DNA of 63,637 nucleotides, counting the filler, from Craspedostauros australis (taxonomy: Eukaryota), in NCBI GenBank assembly GCA_030167865.1. It is 12 parts of 12 records of this genome, joined end to end, with 100 filler letters (N's around TTAATTAATTAA, not from the genome) between each part and the next. Parts side by side here need not be neighbours in the genome. Positions count along the whole stretch, not along the records: positions 33,124 to 55,785 come from JALAGF010005815.1; 11 more parts are not named here. One strand, written 5' to 3'. The notes beneath the pieces were generated by a model. It did no database searches. It was not told where the DNA came from and saw only the letters and a program-made list of their open reading frames with translations. Positions within the stretch are counted from its first letter, which is position 1, and each line of letters begins with the position of its first letter. Shown here piece after piece: positions 41,199 through 47,985 of this stretch. A program made the position numbers and the translations under genes.

Positions 41199-43009
41199 GG
41201 CGAAAGTGATGATGCTGCGGACAATGAAGGAGGTAAGGAGGGAGGAAAGTGTGCAAGTGACGATGATGGCGATGCCGTGGTGAGATGGTGAGAACAGAAA
41301 GAACAGAGCGAGGAGGGATAAGGAGAGAGCTCGCATCGTCCACCATCCACCCTGGTGGACCACGCGTATTGCCATGGGGCCTGTTTCGCAACAGTCCATC
41401 ATTGGAAGTTAGCGCACGAAGGTCCGCACATGATGGCCAGCCAAGAGAGCAGCAGATCGACGAGCAGTTCCACGTACCAGCACCATGACAGGATAGATAT
41501 GTTCAACAGATGGAATGTCATATTTGCGCGTTATTTTGGTGATGTGCTGTGTTGTGCTGTCTTGTACTGGAGCTGAGTGGCGTCAATGATGTTGTCGGGA
41601 GGTGTTGGCGTTGATGTAAACGTTGATGTTGCACGGGCGTGGTATGATGTGTTGGATTGTGAGAGTTGAAACTTGTGAGAGGAATCAGAACGTGCTGTCG
41701 AGTACTCAACTTTTCGGCATTGGTGGATGGGCGGGTTGGGGATGATGTGGTGGTTGAAGCCTGTATGGATCAATCGTGGGAGGCAGAGAGAAGCGCAGTT
41801 GCGAGGTGGTGTAGGATGCTGCAGTGTGATGCGGTGCCATGTGATGTGATGTGATGTGATGTGATGCGACGTGGTGCCAGGCGATACATCCGCAGTAGAG
41901 TGGCAGCCGGATACGATTCGAGACAGATCGAAATCCAACTTGACTTTGGTTTGAGTTGAGTTGAGTTGAGTTGATCTGGAGCCGTGGGTGGTTGTTGTGG
42001 TGGGATTCGGTGGGATTGGCCACAACCACAACCACGAACGTCGCTGTGGCTGCGACTGAAGTCGTGTGGTTGGAATTGATGAGGGGCTGCGCCTTCAGCC
42101 TTCGGTTGTGGTTGGTCATGGTGACCCACAAGAAGCCCCCCATCCCCCAGATTGACATTCGCTGTCTTGGTGTGGAGCCAAGGGCAGCTGCTCGCCACAG
42201 AACACAGAAAGAGGGCACCGCAAAAAGTACGAAGCACCATTGGGGAGCCTCGTTTACTGCCGTTCTGCCAAGGTTCAATCCCCGGTTCCCTCGCACACGT
42301 TTCTCTCTCTGCATTCGTGATGTCTGGATTCTCGGATTCACGCGATGAGAAGCCCCACGTTCGTTGATTTGCTCTCGCGCAGTCGTGAGTCATGAGCGAC
42401 TGTGGAATGAAGAATCTGCCTTTCGGCGGGAATTTGTGATCAGCCAAATCCAAACAGACACACAACGCAAAGTCGAGGACACGACGGAAACATGACACCA
42501 AGAAAAAGGTGTTCCATCTCGGTTCACAGAGGCTGTGTGGGCACAAGTCGAAACCAGCCCCAACCCAGGGAGTTTGGAGTAGGACAGGGACTGCATTGCT
42601 CTTCGTGTCCCATCCACCCTCGCGCTCGGACGTATCCATGCCCCTTGCGCACTCATTGGAAGCGCATCATGCAATCTGTGCTCGCACATCTGTTCGTATC
42701 GCGCACTCGTTCCTCGAAATGATTCTGTCGTGCGTACGAATTCATACTTGCCTCCAACATCAACATCAACCAGCGTTTCAGCCAAAGACATCACAATCGA
42801 CTTCTGACTGCATCCTGAATCACCCATCACCCATCACCCATCATCAACCATCACCCGTTGCCCGCCAGCCATCGGGCACCAGCCATTGACCATCAACCAT
42901 CATCTACGACCACCTTTCTCTGACTGCATTCTGACCATCCTTGGTCACACAACACCAGCACCCAGGGTGACAAAAATCGAGCAATCTCAAGTTGAACAAC
43001 GCCAGCCAA

Positions 43010-45499
43010 ATGAAGACAAGGGCGAGGAAGACTGAGGGCAGCTCCAGCGATCGTGGAACCGGCGACTCCAACAATGGTCCGGAAACGAAGAGGGCGAAGC
43101 GCAGCAACGGTGGCCCGACGACGCAGGCCAAGCTGTCGTCCTTCTTTGCCGCACGCAAGAAACCACCGCCGCAGCCTTCATCGCCATCGTCATCATCGCC
43201 ATCACCATCACCTTCCCGGACAACATCTGCGGGGAAGCAACCGGCAGTGGCAAGGGCGGATGCCTTGATGGCTGCGACCGCGACGAAGCCATGCACCGAT
43301 CCAGTGCTGGATGGCATCAAGGACGGCCCCATCCATCCAAAAGAGGTGCCACCCAGGCCCGACGTGCACTGGAAGTCTTACTACGACAACCACATCATCA
43401 CGCGCAAGGTCTCCAAGCAGGAGCCACGCGAAAAGGTGGCTGCTCTCGACATGGACGGGACGTTGCTTTCCTGGCTGGTGCAGTACCCATCGCAGCTGGA
43501 GCAGTACGAGCTGTGGTCCACGTCCATCATCCCCAAGCTGCGCAAGCTGCACGATGACGAGGGGTACAGATTGTGCATCTTTTCCAACCAAGGCTCCGTC
43601 CGCAGCGCGCACACCGGCAAGAAGGCGACCAGGGTCAAGCTCATCGTCGACTGGCTCGCGCACATCATCAACCGACCGCTATTCGCCATCCTGTCCACGA
43701 AGAGCCGCAAGGCGAGCAAGGATTCCTACCACAAGCCATCCTACGGATTGTGGGAGGCAGCGGAGGTTCTGCTCAACAAGAAGGTGAACTTCGACATCGG
43801 GCAAAGCTTCTTCGTCGGTGACTCTGTCATCGAGGATCCGCAGGATACCCAAGGTGGCGTAGACGAGAACTTCGCCCTGAATGTGGGCAAGGAACGCAAC
43901 GGGACTCTCAAGTTCTACACCCCGAAGCAGTACTTTGGTCCCACGGACGAGGAGCGGCGTTCCGCCTCGTCGGGCGGTTCAGGAAAGGATGCCATCCCCA
44001 AGCACGCTCTGGAGGCACGAGCAGCATTGCTCGGTGCGTACACCAAGGGGCCGATCATGCTCATGTTGTGCGGCATCCAAGGCAGTGGCAAATCAACCTT
44101 CTGCAACCACCTGATGCGGTCGCCGAAGGATGATGGGCAGCCGCAACAACCACAGCAACCGCAACAAGCAGACAACTGTCATTGGCAGTACCTGAGCCAG
44201 GACACAATCAGCAATGGCAAACCAGGGAAGAGGGAGAAGGTCGAAGAAAAGGCCAAACAGGCGCTGGAGGCTGGCCGATCCGTTATCATCGACAGGACGC
44301 ACTTGGATCCCACGCAGCGTTCGCACTTTCTGCGTGTCGCGGAGTCGGTGCAATCATCCTCACCCATCCCCGTTCATATCGTCGTCCTGGATCCACCAAA
44401 GTCGATCATCGGGAAGAGGGTCAAAGAGCGGACCAACCACCCGGGCAAGGTTCAGGGTGAGAAGGCGGCGGCATTCGCCATGCGCGCCAAGCTGATTCCT
44501 CCCACATACGACGAAGGCTTCACGTTGATTTCGAGAACCATGTCGGTAGCTGGGGCGATTGGGATTGCGAGGTTGTACGCGGCTCTCTTCGACCGTGCTG
44601 TGCCCAAGAAGATCCCCGACGATTGGTTCCAACTGCGCAATGAATCCGCAGCAAGCGTTGCGCCGCTATGTCTGGGTATGTACAAGGTGAACAAAAAGGC
44701 AGTGGGCGGTGTTATTCGGAAGGCTGCGTCGGCTGGATTCCGCTGTATCGACACAGCACCGACCTACGATAACGAAACCCAGCTGGGTGACGTCCTCCAC
44801 ACGAGCAACGCAGCATCTGTTGCGTGTATTGTCAAGGTGCCCAAAAGGGCCAAGACGCCTGAGCAGGTTCGGAAAGAAGTCGAATCCAGCCTGGCCAAAT
44901 TACAACTCCAACAAGCAGACTTCCTGCTGCTGCATTGGCCCAGCGATGTGATGGGAGCCAAAACGATGGCCGAAGTATGGAAGGCCATGGAAGACTGCGT
45001 GGAAGATGGCTTGTGCAAATCGTTGGGCGTTTGCAATTTCAACGAGGCTGCGCTGCTGGAGTTGCTGCCGTACTGCAACATCCGACCAGCCATAAACCAA
45101 GTGGAGCGCCATCTGCTGCTTCCACAATGGGAACTGCTCGATTTCTGCTGGCGCAATGACATCATCCCCCAGGCTCACTCTCCGTTGGGGTGTGCCAGTC
45201 CGATGCTGCTGGATAATGCGACAGTGAGGAAAATCGCGAACGAAATCGGCGCGTCGCCTGCACAGGTCTTGCTGCGGTGGAATTTGCAGAGCCACGTCCC
45301 CGTCGTATGCAAGTGTTCCACATCAGGCCACCAGGAGGAGGCAATCGCATCCGCGGCATCCGTTGAGTTGTCGCAGCAGCACATGGAAGACTTGAACATG
45401 GTCTCCAAAGATCCAGCATCACACAAGCGGTTCGTTGCACCACCGTTCATGTATGGCAAGGCGACATTCTGCTGGGGGCTGAAATGGAAGAGTTCCTGA
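43010..45499 (+). CDS. PNKP: PNKP-like 3'-phosphatase/5'-kinase fused to an aldo-keto reductase, 829 aa
   Basis: HAD motifs DMDGTL, FSNQG, YHKP and FFVGD; P-loop GIQGSGKST with SQD and IIDRTH; AKR motifs IDTAPTY, IVK, LLHWP, GVCNF, NQVE.H, SPLG and AQVLLRW. One uninterrupted ORF with no Ns. Confidence 0.9.
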   Translation: MKTRARKTEGSSSDRGTGDSNNGPETKRAKRSNGGPTTQAKLSSFFAARKKPPPQPSSPSSSSPSPSPSRTTSAGKQPAVARADALMAATATKPCTDPVLDGIKDGPIHPKEVPPRPDVHWKSYYDNHIITRKVSKQEPREKVAALDMDGTLLSWLVQYPSQLEQYELWSTSIIPKLRKLHDDEGYRLCIFSNQGSVRSAHTGKKATRVKLIVDWLAHIINRPLFAILSTKSRKASKDSYHKPSYGLWEAAEVLLNKKVNFDIGQSFFVGDSVIEDPQDTQGGVDENFALNVGKERNGTLKFYTPKQYFGPTDEERRSASSGGSGKDAIPKHALEARAALLGAYTKGPIMLMLCGIQGSGKSTFCNHLMRSPKDDGQPQQPQQPQQADNCHWQYLSQDTISNGKPGKREKVEEKAKQALEAGRSVIIDRTHLDPTQRSHFLRVAESVQSSSPIPVHIVVLDPPKSIIGKRVKERTNHPGKVQGEKAAAFAMRAKLIPPTYDEGFTLISRTMSVAGAIGIARLYAALFDRAVPKKIPDDWFQLRNESAASVAPLCLGMYKVNKKAVGGVIRKAASAGFRCIDTAPTYDNETQLGDVLHTSNAASVACIVKVPKRAKTPEQVRKEVESSLAKLQLQQADFLLLHWPSDVMGAKTMAEVWKAMEDCVEDGLCKSLGVCNFNEAALLELLPYCNIRPAINQVERHLLLPQWELLDFCWRNDIIPQAHSPLGCASPMLLDNATVRKIANEIGASPAQVLLRWNLQSHVPVVCKCSTSGHQEEAIASAASVELSQQHMEDLNMVSKDPASHKRFVAPPFMYGKATFCWGLKWKSS

Positions 45500-45897
45500 T
45501 TCTCTACTACACGAGAACGAATACTGGAATACTCCAATGCACTGGATGAATACATTGAACAATATGTTATTGTGCAGTACATGATAGTAGAAGAGAGCAG
45601 AGTATGCCATAGTGCTTCACTCGCAAAGAGGACTGTTCTCTGCTCCACTCCGCTCGCTTCGTTCTGGCCATCGTGTACAGATCGTGGCCAGTGGGCAGCT
45701 GGACGCCGGCTGCAAGCAATTCCGAGTTACTCATAGAGAAGCATCAAGATCAGTGCGAAGAACAGCCCAGAAGTTAGAGAAATGAATTGAACTCGTTATC
45801 GGCAGGTTTGTTTGCACTTGTACTATTCGTGCGCGTATTGTGGTCCTTGAGCATCATGCAGCATACTCGTGCGAGTGCTCGTGGGCGTGCGATAGCA

Positions 45898-47985
45898 TCA
45901 CTTGGATGGCAGCAATGTTGTTGTTGGCGTTGGCGACGTTGGTGACGGTGGACACGGGGTCGATTCGGATTGATCCTCCAAGTCCGTCATTGGGACCAGC
46001 TCCACACGAAACCTGCCAAGACCGGCCATTTCTTCCTCTCGAAACGGCAGGTAGACACCACAGCTGTACACGAAAGCCGCAATGGCCACCGCAGTGTATC
46101 CAGTCCAAACGAAGACCGAGTACTGTTCCGGTTTGGAGAACATGAGCCCAAGACAGAAGGGAAAGAATCCAAACATGCACTCCATCGAACTTTGGACGCC
46201 ACCGACACGTCCGCGGATATCGACGGGAACCTGCTCCTGCATCATCTGAACGATCGCAATGTCGAACACCCACAACCCCAGGCGGCTCGGAAGTACCCCG
46301 GCGACGAGCAGCGCAGTTGAGTCGCCGAAAAACACCGACGATGCCGAGATGCTGAGGCATGTGATTTCCCATACGATGCTCCAAAACCCCGTGAATTCCA
46401 AGCTCCAACCGCACATCTCGGTCGAAGATCGGTATGCCAAGGTGCCCAGCAAGCCGACGGCGTTGGAAACACCTCGCAGGACCCCGATCTTGTCCAGCGT
46501 CATGCCCTGCGCGATGAGGTAGGCAGTCATGAGGCCGGAAAACGTCAAGGTGTTTAAATGTAACAACGCTAAGCCGATGCCTCCGTACGTCGCTGCGCCT
46601 TGACGCAGGTAGAGCTTGATGCTTGACAGGACCGATGTGGACGCGGTCGATGATGTTGATGTTGATGCGCCTTCCTTCTGCTTCGCCAAATTACATTCCG
46701 GAGCACCTGCAACGAGTGCCTTGTTGTTGGACACGTTGGATCCATGTTTGGATGACGTTGACGCTGATGTTGATGCTGATGCCGCTTCCTCGTTTGATCC
46801 AGGTTCTGGTGTTGTGTTCGTGAGATATTCGCTTTCGAGTGCTGTGTCGGAATCGCTGTCGTCAACGTCATCAATGTCATTGTCGTTGTCACCACTCTGC
46901 TGCGGGTGGATTGGCGCTGCGAGGACTGGGATCAGCGAATGGATGCGTGCAATGCAGATCAATTCGATGACCAGCGCGGCGACATTCCATCCGCTGATCC
47001 AAAGAATGGCCGGGGATAGATCGGAGCTCCCGTGTGGCCTCTGCGCTTGCGAGTTTGCGGAGGTGGTGTCGTGCGCGGCGTCGGGAGATGGCGTGATAGT
47101 CCACATGGCCAGGAACCACCCCGCGAATGTCGGAGCCATGACTTTGCATGCCAGATCGATCTGCTTCATCTGCACGTTGGTCTTCGACAGCCACAGGCTG
47201 GATGCCTTCGGCGGTGGGCGAGAATGGGGGAGAGTCGCCGGCTGGTTGGTGACGTCGTTCGTGGATTGGGTCGGCATGATGGGGCCATCTCGAGTCGGTT
47301 CCACCACGCATGTGCTCATCGCGACGATCCAATCCTTTTCGACTGCGACCAGGAAGCTCCGATCCAGTACTTGTGCGATGGCACCGCAAATGTGAACCAC
47401 TGCGAGGCACACGATCTCTTCGAATGACCATCTCGGTGCGAAGCTGCTGCCATCTTGTTCCTCCTCGTGAGTGATGGATTGGTTATTATACCCATCACTT
47501 CCATCGTCATGGACGTCACCAACGTCGCCAACGCCGCCACCATTGGCATCATGCCTTCGCAACAGATACCAGCACCCCGCCGTTGCCAGGACGACGAACA
47601 TGTTCTCACATGAGATCCACACCTGCGCAAGCCGCAGCCGCTGTCCCTTGCGCGCGTATCCATCAATGAGAATGCCAGTGTAGGGGAGGATGGTCGTGGT
47701 TGCCAACCCCACCACGATGCCGTAGGTCGAGACCAGCAGCAGATCGTAGTTGGACAATGCCGCGAGAAGCAGGACCAGGCAGAATTGCCACGACCACTCG
47801 CTGAATTGATTCAACGCATGCGAGGCGTACATCAGCCAAAGTGCGTGGTTAAGATCATCGGGATGCACTTGTGGCGCCGCGGGAGGCAGAGCCGGAGTCG
47901 CACTCTCCGTTGAAACCGGCATTGAAGTCGAGGATGCCGACGCTGTCGTTGGAACCGATGCTGTTGTTGGATTGGGTTGGAGCAT
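45898..47985 (-). CDS. FPN: Ferroportin (SLC40/IREG family) metal exporter, 695 aa
   Basis: LMYASHAL…W.F, LVSTYG, VAVEKDWIV, MKQIDL.CK..AP, TLTFSGLMTAYL and SRLGLWVFDIAIVQMMQE.VP…RG.VGGVQ are FPN1-family motifs; multiple TM segments. Confidence 0.9.
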   Translation of the reverse strand: MLQPNPTTASVPTTASASSTSMPVSTESATPALPPAAPQVHPDDLNHALWLMYASHALNQFSEWSWQFCLVLLLAALSNYDLLLVSTYGIVVGLATTTILPYTGILIDGYARKGQRLRLAQVWISCENMFVVLATAGCWYLLRRHDANGGGVGDVGDVHDDGSDGYNNQSITHEEEQDGSSFAPRWSFEEIVCLAVVHICGAIAQVLDRSFLVAVEKDWIVAMSTCVVEPTRDGPIMPTQSTNDVTNQPATLPHSRPPPKASSLWLSKTNVQMKQIDLACKVMAPTFAGWFLAMWTITPSPDAAHDTTSANSQAQRPHGSSDLSPAILWISGWNVAALVIELICIARIHSLIPVLAAPIHPQQSGDNDNDIDDVDDSDSDTALESEYLTNTTPEPGSNEEAASASTSASTSSKHGSNVSNNKALVAGAPECNLAKQKEGASTSTSSTASTSVLSSIKLYLRQGAATYGGIGLALLHLNTLTFSGLMTAYLIAQGMTLDKIGVLRGVSNAVGLLGTLAYRSSTEMCGWSLEFTGFWSIVWEITCLSISASSVFFGDSTALLVAGVLPSRLGLWVFDIAIVQMMQEQVPVDIRGRVGGVQSSMECMFGFFPFCLGLMFSKPEQYSVFVWTGYTAVAIAAFVYSCGVYLPFREEEMAGLGRFRVELVPMTDLEDQSESTPCPPSPTSPTPTTTLLPSK

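What the first reader, a model, noticed from the sequence alone, without database searches (positions are those of the whole stretch)
43010..45499. PNKP DNA end-healing enzyme fused to an apparently intact aldo-keto reductase
Seen: one gap-free 829-aa ORF with a HAD 3'-phosphatase (DMDGTL at 43448), a P-loop kinase (GIQGSGKST at 44072) and, from ~44650, an AKR barrel with candidates for the full Asp/Tyr/Lys/His tetrad (IDTAPTY, IVK, LLHWP). Established: animal PNKP is FHA-phosphatase-kinase and has no reductase; AP-lyase and oxidative cleavage leave aldehyde-bearing DNA ends; many diatoms make reactive polyunsaturated aldehydes. Inference: this may be a trifunctional repair enzyme that couples end-healing to NADPH-dependent reduction of aldehydes on or near broken DNA. 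I do not know how widespread the architecture is.
Basis: partly seen in the sequence, partly recalled or inferred. Interest (0 to 1): 0.85.

Follow-up and report, generated by a model that had tools for sequence, protein, structure and literature searches.

The report
Diatom DNA end-healing enzyme with reductase
A diatom gene joins the two standard enzymes that clean broken DNA ends to an intact-looking aldehyde reductase and a PCNA-docking motif, an arrangement kept across diatoms and built separately in soil bacteria, which hints at an undescribed way of mending oxidised DNA ends.

Summary
Window 43010-45499 (+) is one stop-free 829-aa ORF with PNK3P phosphatase, AAA_33 kinase and Aldo_ket_red domains.

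It is not a gene-model accident. All 120 listed homologues carry the same three domains, and the named ones are all diatoms, including three 'complete' MMETSP transcripts. The catalytic residues of all three domains, including the AKR Asp-Tyr-Lys-His tetrad, are invariant in my 32-sequence alignment.

New here:
- A canonical PIP box (QAKLSSFF, residues 39-46) after an NLS replaces the animal FHA domain. It occurs in 72 of 107 family members, against 0.135 expected.
- Sister lineages carry FHA-PNKP-AKR and FHA-PNKP-TDP1.
- The fused AKRs form one clade with a remodelled, more basic pocket.
- Myxococcota carry an independent fusion in the order AKR then PNKP-like kinase. This scan noted that bacterial form before on other DNA (e1-2293917), but not the diatom family.

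Best reading, which is an inference: a PCNA-tethered end-healing enzyme whose reductase converts a carbonyl-bearing DNA terminus, most logically nucleoside-5'-aldehyde, into the kinase's 5'-OH substrate.

No biochemistry was done, and no RNA data cover the junction in this species. Eight paper searches found no description of the fusion.

The parts
43010..45499 (+). Complete single-exon coding sequence, 829 aa plus stop (protein P0001)
   Evidence: An in-frame stop lies 15 codons upstream of the ATG. Homologue P0002 aligns over residues 20-825 in one stretch.
43010..43300 (+). Disordered N-terminal tail, residues 1-97. No FHA domain.
   Evidence: pLDDT is below 50 over residues 1-97. There is no Pfam match in this stretch.
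43088..43102 (+). Basic cluster KRAKR (residues 27-31), a likely nuclear localisation signal
   Evidence: Read directly from the sequence. A similar basic cluster precedes the PIP box in most of the 25 contexts printed. The NLS function is an inference.
43124..43147 (+). PIP-box motif QAKLSSFF (residues 39-46), a putative PCNA-docking peptide
   Evidence: The regex Q..[LIMV]..[FYW][FYW] matches the N-terminal region of 72 of 107 three-domain family proteins. Two hundred shuffles of the same regions give a mean of 0.135 and a maximum of 2. PCNA binding was not tested.
43433..43936 (+). HAD-type DNA 3'-phosphatase domain (PNK3P), residues 142-309. Key residues are D147, D149, T151, S192/N193, K242 and D271.
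   Evidence: Pfam E 2.3e-23. TIGR01664 DNA-3'-Pase E 3.1e-19, which is below its cut-off. D147, N193, G195 and K242 are invariant in 32 of 32 sequences. Residues 100-540 hit mouse PNKP 3zvl at E 7.6e-14.
44057..44491 (+). P-loop polynucleotide 5'-kinase domain (AAA_33), residues 350-494. Features are Walker A GIQGSGKST, catalytic D398, D428-R429, and R470/R474.
   Evidence: Pfam E 8.4e-15. The listed residues are invariant in 32 of 32 sequences. The domain aligns to the mouse PNKP kinase.
44129..44173 (+). Gln/Pro-rich insertion (about residues 374-388) inside the kinase domain. It is absent from homologues.
   Evidence: Compare P0001 with P0002 and the others. The pLDDT blocks covering residues 371-390 are 57 and 53.
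44585..44629 (+). Short linker (residues 526-540) between the last PNKP helix and the first AKR hairpin
   Evidence: DSSP shows helix 513-525 followed by strands at 541, 549 and 553-556. pLDDT is about 72-74 in this stretch.
44651..45484 (+). Aldo-keto reductase (alpha/beta)8 barrel, residues 548-825. The tetrad is D581, Y586, K609, H642. Cofactor-site residues include N676, Q697 and K768. Fusion-specific residues are P611, K612, R613, R700, H723 and H774.
   Evidence: Pfam E 4.4e-34. PDB sequence hits DkgA 1mzr and YvgN 3f7j at about E 1e-32. Foldseek TM-score by target 0.79-0.89. Site table.

Best explanation
The gene encodes the diatom orthologue of polynucleotide kinase/3'-phosphatase (PNKP), a nuclear DNA end-healing enzyme, extended at both ends.

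**Anatomy shown by sequence.**
- A disordered tail carries an NLS and a canonical PIP box.
- A HAD 3'-phosphatase and a P-loop 5'-kinase follow, both with complete catalytic motifs.
- After a linker of about 15 residues comes a full AKR barrel with an invariant Asp-Tyr-Lys-His tetrad.

**Mechanism inferred.**
1. The PIP box docks the enzyme on PCNA at replication or repair sites. This replaces the FHA-mediated recruitment used in animals.
2. The AKR uses NAD(P)H to reduce a carbonyl on a damaged DNA terminus.
3. The PNKP core then finishes the end.

**Favoured substrate.** The 2'-deoxynucleoside-5'-aldehyde terminus left by C5' oxidation of deoxyribose. Reduction would give 5'-CH2OH, which is exactly the kinase's substrate. 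The phosphatase would clear the 3'-phosphate on the other side of the break. The result would be a ligatable nick with no nucleotide lost and no resynthesis.

Other carbonyl termini (3'-keto-2'-deoxynucleotide, 3'-phosphoglycolaldehyde, 3'-PUA, AP/5'-dRP) are possible but chemically less tidy targets.
For: **The fusion is real and conserved.**
- 120 of 120 listed homologues carry PF08645, PF13671 and PF00248. The named ones are 12 diatom records, and three are complete MMETSP transcripts.
- The nearest Atlas cluster (98 members) has all three domains in 100% of members.

**Catalysis looks preserved in all three domains.** In 32 sequences that I chose from the hits (33-50% identical to P0001), these residues are invariant:
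- D147, N193, K242.
- G355, G358, G360, K361, D398, D428, R429.
- D581, Y586, K609, H642, N676, Q697.

**The PNKP identity points to DNA.**
- Residues 100-540 hit mouse PNKP first (3zvl, E 7.6e-14).
- The model hits 3u7e and 3zvl.
- Sister lineages carry an APLF/PNKP-type FHA: profile A2 against 5w7w gives E 1.2e-4.
- The PIP box is in 72 of 107 members against 0.135 expected.

**The AKR is specialised, not a generic passenger.**
- The 31 eukaryotic fused AKR domains form one clade (SH-aLRT 99), apart from the 29 nearest stand-alone AKRs.
- Fused and stand-alone forms differ at pocket and cofactor sites:
  - R700: 31 of 31 fused, 2 of 29 stand-alone.
  - H774: 31 of 31 fused. Stand-alone forms have R in 22 of 29.
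  - H723: 30 of 31 fused. Stand-alone forms have Y or W in 26 of 29.
  - P611: 28 of 31 fused. Stand-alone forms have W in 16 of 29.
  - Positions 612/613 are mostly K/R in the fused forms.
- Net charge of the AKR domain is modestly higher in fused forms: median +1 against -2, p 0.011.

**Rosetta-stone logic.**
- Myxococcota have a large family in the order AKR then PNKP-like kinase. 120 of 120 listed carry PF00248 and PF13671, and the named ones are Polyangiaceae, Labilithrix and 'Deltaproteobacteria'.
- The order is AKR 11-278 then AAA_33 302-398.
- The kinase part hits mouse PNKP at E 3.3e-9.
- Their AKR is a far-removed clade (branch length 2.61, support 100). The pairing therefore arose at least twice.
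- In other eukaryotic proteins (P0192, P0202) the same C-terminal position on an FHA-PNKP scaffold holds TDP1. TDP1's product is the 3'-phosphate that PNKP removes (review PMC12564780, passages).

**Chemistry and the gap in knowledge.**
- 5'-al-dN is a major C5'-oxidation product with a half-life of days. Only non-specific long-patch BER is known to remove it (PMC12564780, section 2.5 read whole). 'Reductase' occurs 0 times in that review.
- Povirk 2012 calls the resolution of 5'-aldehyde termini 'essentially unknown' (PMC3825254, passage).
Against: - No activity of any domain was measured. Everything about substrate is inference.
- No AKR is known to act on a polymeric DNA substrate. This is my recall, and searches found none.
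- The cofactor site is altered. The Arg that binds the NADPH 2'-phosphate is His in 31 of 31 fused forms. The canonical Asn (29 of 29 stand-alone) is kept in only 4 of 31 fused forms and is otherwise mostly hydrophobic. The nicotinamide-stacking Tyr/Trp is His. NAD(P)H binding could therefore be weakened or changed.
- The net-charge shift is small.
- The relative placement of the AKR and kinase active sites could not be inspected because no coordinates are returned. pTM 0.71 is only indirect.
- Centric-type long forms lack the PIP box (0 of 17), so PCNA tethering is not universal in the family.
- In the 32-row alignment the second HAD Asp is Glu in 3 rows (P0008, P0113, P0153) and Asn in 1 (P0099). 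P0153 also has a degenerate motif IV.
- That the C5' break carries a 3'-phosphate on its other side is recalled, not read. The Povirk passage describes mixed 3'-phosphate/3'-PG termini at enediyne double-strand-break ends.
- The clade labels in the tree are mine, assigned by similarity. Most sequences are unnamed.
Confidence: 0.45

Rival explanations
1. Tethered small-molecule detoxifier. The AKR reduces free reactive carbonyls inside the nucleus, such as methylglyoxal, glyoxal, base propenals, lipid or polyunsaturated aldehydes. Being fused to PNKP only places and co-regulates it where DNA is exposed. It never touches DNA itself.
For: - The nearest characterised relatives are small-molecule reductases. 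The best PDB sequence hits are DkgA 1mzr and YvgN 3f7j. NCBIfam gives DkgA at E 5e-43 and methylglyoxal reductase YdjG at E 1.8e-10.
- One JGI record names a homologue 'methylglyoxal/glyoxal reductase' (P0062).
- The tetrad is intact.
Against: - A generic detoxifier would not be expected to show a family-wide remodelled pocket: R700 in 31 of 31, W replaced by P at 611, and basic residues at 612/613.
- Nor would it be expected to be fused independently, in another order and from another AKR subfamily, to a PNKP-like kinase in Myxococcota.
- The DkgA equivalog cut-off is far from met: 147 bits against 425.
- Polyunsaturated aldehydes are a diatom speciality, but the pairing is also bacterial.
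Confidence: 0.22
2. Redox or cofactor sensor. The AKR barrel binds NAD(P)(H) and acts as a regulatory module that tunes PNKP activity or localisation to the cell's redox state. Kv-beta subunits do this for potassium channels and KidO does it in Caulobacter. Under this reading there is no physiologically relevant turnover.
For: - The cofactor site carries family-specific changes: H774 for Arg, H723 for Tyr/Trp, and loss of the canonical Asn.
- NCBIfam shows weak similarity to KidO (E 2.2e-7) and Kv_beta (E 1.1e-4), as it does for many AKRs.
- That AKR-fold regulators exist is recalled knowledge.
Against: - All four catalytic residues are invariant over 32 of 32 aligned sequences at 33-50% identity. 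They are also kept in 8 of 8 sampled bacterial fusions. A pure binding module would not need this. From recall, KidO has lost catalytic residues.
- The substrate-pocket residues are conserved too (R700 in 31 of 31), not only the cofactor-site residues.
Confidence: 0.13
3. RNA rather than DNA end-healing. The phosphatase-kinase pair heals RNA ends, as in tRNA splicing or RNA repair, and the reductase acts on an oxidised ribose terminus.
For: - PNK-type kinase and phosphatase modules also serve RNA repair in bacteria and fungi. There are weak hits to bacterial Pnkp TIGR04075 (E 4.3e-4) and to tRNA_lig_kinase in P0114 (E 6.2e-5).
Against: - The best matches are the DNA enzyme, mammalian PNKP.
- The tail carries an NLS and a PIP box, and PCNA is a DNA clamp.
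- Sister lineages carry the XRCC1/XRCC4-binding type of FHA. Another carries TDP1, a DNA-end enzyme.
Confidence: 0.05
4. Annotation or assembly artefact. Two neighbouring genes, a PNKP and an AKR, happen to lie in one frame without a stop, or the transcript is processed into two products.
For: There is no RNA evidence across the junction for this species. The only run found covers 44953-45700, which is no evidence either way.
Against: - The same continuous architecture is in 120 of 120 listed homologues from many assemblies and sources. Three are MMETSP transcript ORFs marked complete.
- The linker is only about 15 residues, with no room for a terminator, promoter and UTRs.
- The fused AKRs are a clade of their own.
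Confidence: 0.02

Closest known systems
Mammalian PNKP (bifunctional polynucleotide 3'-phosphatase/5'-kinase; PDB 3zvl, 1yj5, 3u7e)
   Same: It has a HAD DxDGT phosphatase followed by a P-loop kinase, in the same order. The catalytic motifs are the same. It is the best PDB sequence hit for residues 100-540 (E 7.6e-14), and Foldseek gives E about 2e-20.
   Different: The diatom protein has no FHA domain. It has a disordered tail with an NLS and a PIP box instead. It carries an extra C-terminal AKR barrel of about 280 aa. It scores far below the TIGR01663 equivalog cut-off: 87 bits against 502.8.
Small bacterial AKRs of the DkgA/YvgN type (2,5-diketo-D-gluconate and methylglyoxal reductases; PDB 1mzr, 3f7j)
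   Same: The full (alpha/beta)8 barrel is present (TM-score by target 0.89). The Asp-Tyr-Lys-His tetrad is the same, as are the GxxNF and NQxExH motifs. Sequence E-values are about 1e-32.
   Different: The diatom AKR is fused to PNKP. The pocket Trp is replaced by Pro, with K/R beside it. Arg is invariant in NQVERH. The nicotinamide-stacking Tyr/Trp is His, the 2'-phosphate Arg is His, and the canonical Asn is lost. The DkgA equivalog cut-off is not met: 147 bits against 425.
Myxococcota AKR / PNKP-like kinase fusion proteins (uncharacterised; e.g. P0259 and 119 further listed clusters; earlier scan note e1-2293917)
   Same: An AKR with an intact tetrad (8 of 8 sampled) is joined in one polypeptide to a kinase whose best solved relative is mammalian PNKP (E 3.3e-9). 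His occupies the nicotinamide-stacking position, as in the diatom family (8 of 8).
   Different: The domain order is opposite, AKR first. The AKR comes from a distant subfamily: it is a separate clade with branch length 2.61, and its best PDB hits are 5dan and AKR13B2. The family is bacterial.
FHA-PNKP-TDP1 fusion proteins (P0192, P0202; unnamed eukaryotic records)
   Same: They share the phosphatase-kinase core, 37-39% identical to the window protein, and are among its closest non-AKR relatives in 1.84 billion representatives. A DNA-end-processing enzyme is attached at the same C-terminal position.
   Different: The partner is tyrosyl-DNA phosphodiesterase, not an AKR. The N-terminus looks FHA-like (read by eye) rather than carrying a PIP box.
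PIP-box repair and replication factors such as DNA ligase I, FEN1 and p21 (recalled)
   Same: An N-terminal or terminal Qxx[LIM]xx[FY][FY] peptide sits in a disordered, basic context next to an NLS.
   Different: I know of no PNKP reported with a PIP box. One search returned 9 listed papers, of which I saw titles and abstract starts only, and none is about such a PNKP. Binding to PCNA is untested here.

Membership tests
Eukaryotic PNKP (polynucleotide kinase 3'-phosphatase) | HAD-superfamily 3'-phosphatase domain with DxDGT nucleophile motif, Ser/Thr motif II, Lys motif III and acidic motif IV | tested here: met
   Pfam PNK3P E 2.3e-23. The motifs DMDGTL, FSNQG, HKP and FVGDS are present. D147, N193, G195 and K242 are invariant in 32 of 32 sequences.
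Eukaryotic PNKP (polynucleotide kinase 3'-phosphatase) | P-loop polynucleotide 5'-kinase domain C-terminal to the phosphatase, with Walker A and a catalytic Asp | tested here: met
   AAA_33 E 8.4e-15. GIQGSGKST, D398 and D428-R429 are invariant. The domain aligns to mouse PNKP over both domains.
Eukaryotic PNKP (polynucleotide kinase 3'-phosphatase) | N-terminal FHA domain (animal-type PNKP) | tested here: not met
   There is no Pfam match in residues 1-141, and residues 1-97 are predicted disordered. FHA is present in a sister lineage: profile A2 against the APLF FHA gives E 1.2e-4. From recall, FHA is not universal among PNKP orthologues; fungal and plant forms lack it.
Eukaryotic PNKP (polynucleotide kinase 3'-phosphatase) | Curated equivalog score (NCBIfam TIGR01663 PNK-3'Pase) | tested here: not met
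   87.4 bits against a cut-off of 502.8. The protein is a divergent orthologue, not an equivalog by that model.
Eukaryotic PNKP (polynucleotide kinase 3'-phosphatase) | 3'-phosphatase and 5'-kinase activity on DNA ends | not testable with these tools
   This needs an enzyme assay.
Aldo-keto reductase superfamily | (alpha/beta)8 TIM-barrel fold of about 280-330 residues | tested here: met
   Foldseek TM-score by target is 0.79-0.89 to many AKR structures. pLDDT is mostly 88-98 over residues 551-800.
Aldo-keto reductase superfamily | Catalytic tetrad Asp-Tyr-Lys-His | tested here: met
   D581, Y586, K609 and H642 are invariant in 32 of 32 sequences. They align to the tetrad positions of YvgN/DkgA.
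Aldo-keto reductase superfamily | Canonical NADPH-binding residues: Ser/Asn after beta5, Gln in NQxE, stacking Tyr/Trp, and the IPKSxxxxRxxxN 2'-phosphate clamp. The roles of these residues are recalled from AKR1B1. | tested here: inconclusive
   N676, Q697 and K768 are kept. The stacking residue is His (30 of 31). The clamp Arg is His (31 of 31). The clamp Asn is variable, though it is N in 29 of 29 stand-alone relatives. Binding and NADH/NADPH preference cannot be read from sequence.
DkgA-type 2,5-didehydrogluconate reductase (NCBIfam NF008598 equivalog) | Curated equivalog score | tested here: not met
   147.2 bits against a cut-off of 425.
PIP-box PCNA clients | Motif Q-x-x-[LIM]-x-x-[FY]-[FY] in a disordered region (consensus recalled) | tested here: met
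   QAKLSSFF is at residues 39-46. The motif is in 72 of 107 family proteins, against a shuffled mean of 0.135 and a maximum of 2. The region is disordered.
PIP-box PCNA clients | Physical binding to PCNA | not tested
This needs a pull-down, ITC or a co-fold.

The most novel reading that the evidence does not exclude
A direct-reversal repair route for oxidised 5' DNA termini. The AKR domain reduces the nucleoside-5'-aldehyde left by C5' oxidation back to a 5'-hydroxyl. The adjoining kinase phosphorylates it, and the phosphatase clears the 3'-phosphate across the break. All of this happens on a PCNA-tethered enzyme, so the nick is sealed without excision or resynthesis. The same solution would have been assembled at least twice: once in chromist algae (diatoms and their FHA-bearing relatives) and once in Myxococcota.
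Probability: 0.25. Interest if true: 0.9.

Novelty: new variant of a known kind. Interest (0 to 1): 0.72.

Why it matters
**What is known.** PNKP is the central 3'-phosphatase/5'-kinase of strand-break repair. The known ways of removing aldehydic 5' blocks are excision-based.
- The 2025 review I read names only non-specific long-patch BER for 5'-aldehyde ends (PMC12564780, section 2.5).
- An older review calls their resolution 'essentially unknown' (PMC3825254, passage).

**Why the fusion is informative.** A conserved covalent pairing of PNKP with a catalytically intact, specially remodelled reductase has arisen independently in algae and in bacteria. That is a strong comparative hint that a redox step belongs to end-healing in these organisms.

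**What follows if it is true.**
- It would add a new chemistry, hydride reduction of a damaged terminus, to DNA repair.
- It would give a one-enzyme reagent for cleaning oxidised ends.
- It would explain how high-light, high-ROS phototrophs cope with sugar oxidation.

**Second point, testable on its own.** The PIP box shows that PNKP recruitment has been rewired from FHA/XRCC1-type scaffolds to the sliding clamp.

**If the AKR proves to be a tethered detoxifier or a redox sensor.** The finding remains a well-defined, widely conserved and undescribed PNKP variant.

Tried and rejected
- **RNA evidence in this species.** The look-up of sequencing runs listed one run, X1, whose kind is only guessed as RNA and which holds 0.22 of the sampled words. 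Laid on 42800-45700, its two contigs cover only 44953-45125 and 45137-45700. The kinase-AKR junction is not covered and no RNA holder is listed. This says nothing either way.
- **Whole genome.** None is held for this window. I could not ask whether a second, unfused PNKP or AKR paralogue exists in this organism.
- **Names for the unnamed lineages.** The taxa of the FHA-PNKP-AKR group (P0142, P0153, P0253, P0254), of the P0255/P0257/P0258 group and of the TDP1 fusions stay unknown. The Atlas only hints at Haptophyta for a 58-member cluster, with phylum known for 2 members.
- **Bacterial fusions by DNA scan.**
  - The search for related loci on genome contigs with A1 confirmed 8 loci out of 596 pattern matches. 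All 8 are single-domain matches and none is a fusion.
  - tblastn of the kinase+AKR part against plasmids matched 1171 records. None covers 80% or more of the query, and all are plain AKRs.
  - The bacterial family was finally reached through P0259, a weak hit.
- **HAD remnant in the bacterial form.**
  - Pfam on the C-terminal 189 aa of P0259 at E up to 10 gave 0 families.
  - hhalign against A1 gave probability 2.4% and E 0.019, aligned to HAD motif IV only.
- **Docking of the PNKP core against the AKR domain.** Complex prediction returned 'no answer', with score 0.00 in two runs, and my alignment was not used. This is no evidence for or against a fixed interface.
- **Pfam FHA on the sister-lineage N-termini.** FHA_2 scored E 0.0041 for P0153 only, below the gathering score, and nothing for P0142. 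The claim rests on the profile-to-PDB match.
- **Literature.**
  - Searches returned 0 papers.
  - Search 26 returned 8, one search returned 8, one search returned 6 and one search returned 8. I saw titles and abstract starts only, and none concerns a PNKP-AKR protein.
  - I read passages of PMC7460133; PNKP and AKR are mentioned there separately.
  - Search 72 found no PIP-box PNKP.
  - About 1.7 million PMC articles and subscription journals are outside the searched library, so 'not described' holds only for these searches.
  - No supplementary files were consulted.
- **Diatom polyunsaturated aldehydes as the driver.** Considered and set aside, because the same pairing exists in Myxococcota and in non-diatom lineages.

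Full report
**1. The observation**

One search lists an ATG-to-stop ORF at 43010..45499 on the + strand, 829 aa. One search translates it without an internal stop. An in-frame stop lies 15 codons upstream of the ATG.

Pfam finds three domains above their gathering scores:
- PNK3P, residues 142-309, E 2.3e-23.
- AAA_33, residues 350-494, E 8.4e-15.
- Aldo_ket_red, residues 560-796, E 4.4e-34.

The best solved relatives of the C-terminal part are the small bacterial AKRs DkgA (1mzr) and YvgN (3f7j), at E about 1e-32. For residues 100-540 the best solved relative is mouse PNKP (3zvl, E 7.6e-14), aligned over both the phosphatase and the kinase.

An AF2 model built on my 32-row alignment has mean pLDDT 82.6 and pTM 0.71. 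Residues 1-97 are disordered. A linker of about 15 residues (526-540) joins the last PNKP helix to the first AKR hairpin. Foldseek superposes the C-terminal part on complete AKR barrels, with TM-score by target up to 0.89, and hits mouse PNKP 3u7e and 3zvl at E about 2e-20.

**2. The fusion is real and conserved**

- The search for homologous proteins found 215 proteins at E up to 1e-3 among 7999 scored candidates. The 120 listed all carry PF08645, PF13671 and PF00248, at 39-50% identity.
- The named records are all diatoms: Epithemia, Cylindrotheca, Nitzschia, Pseudo-nitzschia, Amphora, Mayamaea, two Bacillariaceae MAGs, Thalassiosira, Skeletonema, Cyclotella and Stephanocyclus.
- Three hits are MMETSP transcript ORFs marked 'type:complete' (P0030, P0077, P0099). 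This is transcript-level support for the fused reading frame in relatives.
- The exhaustive HMMER search of 1.84 billion representatives gave 137 hits at E up to 1e-30. Its top ranks are full-length fusions or fragments of them.
- The window's species itself is not among the hits. The best identity is 52%.

**3. Catalytic residues**

I aligned 32 family members chosen from the hits. They were the named ones, the most divergent ones and a spread of the rest, at 33-50% identity to P0001 (alignment A1). Invariant in 32 of 32 are:
- The HAD nucleophile D147, plus N193, G195 and K242.
- Walker A residues G355, G358, G360 and K361.
- The kinase Asp D398, plus D428-R429, R470 and R474.
- The AKR residues D581, Y586, K609, H642, N676, Q697, E699, R700 and H701.

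The second HAD Asp (D149) is Asp in 28 rows, Glu in 3 and Asn in 1. All three active sites therefore look to be under purifying selection.

**4.

The disordered tail carries KRAKR (residues 27-31) and then QAKLSSFF (residues 39-46). The latter fits the PIP-box consensus Qxx[LIM]xx[FY][FY], which I recall rather than took from a call.

Of these, 107 matched simple regexes for the HAD, Walker A and NQ.ERH motifs in that order. The other 145 are fragments or AKR-only proteins and were not counted.
- 72 of the 107 have the PIP regex upstream of the phosphatase. Shuffling the same regions 200 times gave a mean of 0.135 and a maximum of 2.
- The motif is in 71 of 82 proteins shorter than 960 aa with an N-terminal region of at least 90 aa. 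It is in 0 of 17 of the long (960 aa or more) forms, and the named long forms are centric diatoms.
- A conserved short motif in otherwise unalignable low-complexity sequence is the signature of a functional docking peptide. The inference is PCNA tethering, which is untested.

**5. Relatives with other ends**

- Four unnamed proteins of 932-945 aa (P0142, P0153, P0253, P0254) have the same three domains. They also have a folded-looking N-terminus. A 4-row profile of it matches the APLF FHA domain (5w7w, E 1.2e-4). Pfam FHA_2 alone is sub-threshold.
- Two further unnamed proteins (P0192, P0202) are among the closest non-AKR relatives of the PNKP core, at E 1e-42 and 1e-38. They carry PNK3P, AAA_33 and Tyr-DNA_phospho (TDP1), behind an N-terminus that looks FHA-like by eye.
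- One FHA-PNKP scaffold has therefore acquired different DNA-end enzymes at its C-terminus in different lineages. TDP1's product is the 3'-phosphate that PNKP removes (PMC12564780, passages). By analogy, the AKR may also feed PNKP.

**6. Bacteria**

- The ESM Atlas pointed to Myxococcota and Acidobacteriota clusters with AKR and AAA_33.
- I reached the family through P0259. Its order is AKR 11-278 then AAA_33 302-398.
- 120 of 120 listed relatives carry both domains. The named ones are Polyangiaceae, Labilithrix (twice) and 'Deltaproteobacteria'.
- Its kinase part hits mouse PNKP at E 3.3e-9.
- A HAD remnant in its C-terminus was not demonstrable here.

**7. One origin in eukaryotes, a separate one in bacteria**

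I built a tree of 68 AKR domains with quick IQ-TREE and SH-aLRT support only. The rows were:
- 31 eukaryotic fused domains.
- 29 stand-alone AKRs. These were the ones among the 45 candidates P0208-P0252 that had a single full-length AKR domain and 240-345 aa.
- 8 of the 120 listed bacterial fusions.

The tree puts all 31 eukaryotic fused domains on one side of a branch with support 99. The 8 bacterial ones sit on a very long separate branch (length 2.61, support 100). Together with the opposite domain order, this means the AKR/PNKP-kinase pairing arose at least twice.

Caveats: the group labels are mine, assigned by similarity. Many rows deviate in composition. The root is arbitrary.

**8. The fused AKR is specialised**

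At aligned sites the tetrad is kept in all three groups. The eukaryotic fused clade differs from its nearest stand-alone relatives as follows:

| Site | Fused (of 31) | Stand-alone (of 29) |
|---|---|---|
| R700 in NQVERH | 31 | 2 |
| P611 | 28 | Trp in 16 |
| Position 612 | K/R in 27 | not basic in most |
| Position 613 | R/K in 23 | not basic in most |
| H723 | 30 | Tyr/Trp in 26 |
| H774 | 31 | Arg in 22 |
| Canonical Asn | 4 | 29 |

The bacterial fused AKRs have His at the 723 position in 8 of 8. The roles of these positions (pocket Trp, nicotinamide-stacking Tyr, 2'-phosphate clamp Arg and Asn) are recalled from AKR1B1 structures and were not computed here.

Net charge of the domain is slightly higher in fused forms: median +1 against -2, Mann-Whitney p 0.011.

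The pattern is catalysis kept, a pocket made more basic and a cofactor clamp changed. It fits a new, probably anionic substrate and possibly an altered NADH/NADPH preference. It does not prove either.

**9. Mechanism**

Shown: three catalytically complete-looking domains on one chain with a short linker, and a conserved PIP box.

Inferred: the AKR reduces a carbonyl on a DNA terminus.

Among the aldehydic or ketonic termini listed in the two reviews I read, reduction gives different outcomes:
- The nucleoside-5'-aldehyde gives a 5'-hydroxyl, which is the kinase's substrate.
- A 3'-keto-2'-deoxynucleotide could give a 3'-OH.
- 3'-PUA, 5'-dRP or AP sites would remain blocked after reduction, or become resistant to lyases. 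This is my chemical reasoning.

The 2025 review states that 5'-al-dN is a major C5'-oxidation product with a half-life of days. It names only non-specific long-patch BER as a repair route and does not contain the word 'reductase' (PMC12564780: section 2.5 read whole, other parts as passages). Povirk 2012 says the resolution of 5'-aldehyde termini is 'essentially unknown' (PMC3825254, passages only). That the other side of a C5' break bears a 3'-phosphate is recalled from the primary literature those reviews cite, which I did not read.

I put about 0.45 on 'the AKR takes part in DNA-end repair by reducing a carbonyl terminus'. Within that, I put about 0.25 on the specific 5'-aldehyde route.

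**10. Rivals**

- A tethered small-molecule aldehyde detoxifier: 0.22.
- An NAD(P)H-sensing regulatory barrel: 0.13.
- RNA end-healing: 0.05.
- A gene-model artefact: 0.02.

**11. Novelty**

The architecture sits in public databases under automatic names such as 'DNA 3'-phosphatase', 'oxidoreductase, aldo/keto reductase' and 'hypothetical protein'. Eight full-text searches (and 48 for the chemistry) found no paper describing a PNKP-AKR protein, a PIP-box PNKP or an AKR acting on DNA termini. The library excludes most subscription journals.

I class it as a new variant of a known kind: PNKP with a reductase module and clamp tethering. If the favoured mechanism holds, it would carry a categorically new repair chemistry.

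**12. Limits**

- No genome is held for the window.
- Cluster look-ups are off.
- The only sequencing run found does not reach the junction.
- The complex prediction gave no verdict.
- Model coordinates cannot be inspected.
- Most relatives are unnamed.

Noticed in passing
P0192 (1159 aa) and P0202 (1119 aa), unnamed records: These proteins join an FHA-like N-terminus, PNK3P, AAA_33 and a full Tyr-DNA_phospho (TDP1) domain in one chain (Pfam E 2e-84 and 2.4e-86). This is a PNKP-TDP1 fusion that I did not find described. Their taxon is unknown.
   Followed up: partly
P0142, P0153, P0253, P0254 (932-945 aa, unnamed, Ala/Arg-rich): A sister lineage has FHA + phosphatase + kinase + AKR and no PIP box. 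In P0153 the phosphatase motifs look degenerate (DLEHT; motif IV reads AGVRA). This echoes the 'dead phosphatase' reported for the bacterial fusion.
   Followed up: partly
window 44129-44173 (+), residues about 374-388: A Gln/Pro-rich insertion (GQPQQPQQPQQ-like) sits inside the kinase domain between Walker A and the catalytic Asp. It is absent from the homologues printed and has low confidence in the model (pLDDT 53-57).
   Followed up: no
window 45898-47985 (-): The convergent downstream neighbour is a 695-aa ORF matching Ferroportin1 (FPN1, E 1.4e-60). There is no evident functional link to the finding.
   Followed up: partly
Long family members (P0081, P0101, P0107, P0111, P0114; 1059-1167 aa; named centric diatoms): These have N-terminal extensions of 280-520 aa with no Pfam domain and no PIP box. 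By eye they contain Ser/Asp/Glu-rich clusters (SDSDSDDD or SSSSEEDDEE type) followed by basic helices. They may carry a different recruitment device.
   Followed up: no
P0126 (1833 aa) and P0156 (939 aa): These proteins are made of 7 and 4 tandem AKR domains respectively. They are unrelated to the finding but have an unusual architecture.
   Followed up: no
P0101 (Skeletonema menzelii record, 1136 aa), C-terminus after the AKR: About 230 extra residues follow the conserved AKR tail and have no Pfam match. This may be a gene-model run-on or a further domain.
   Followed up: no
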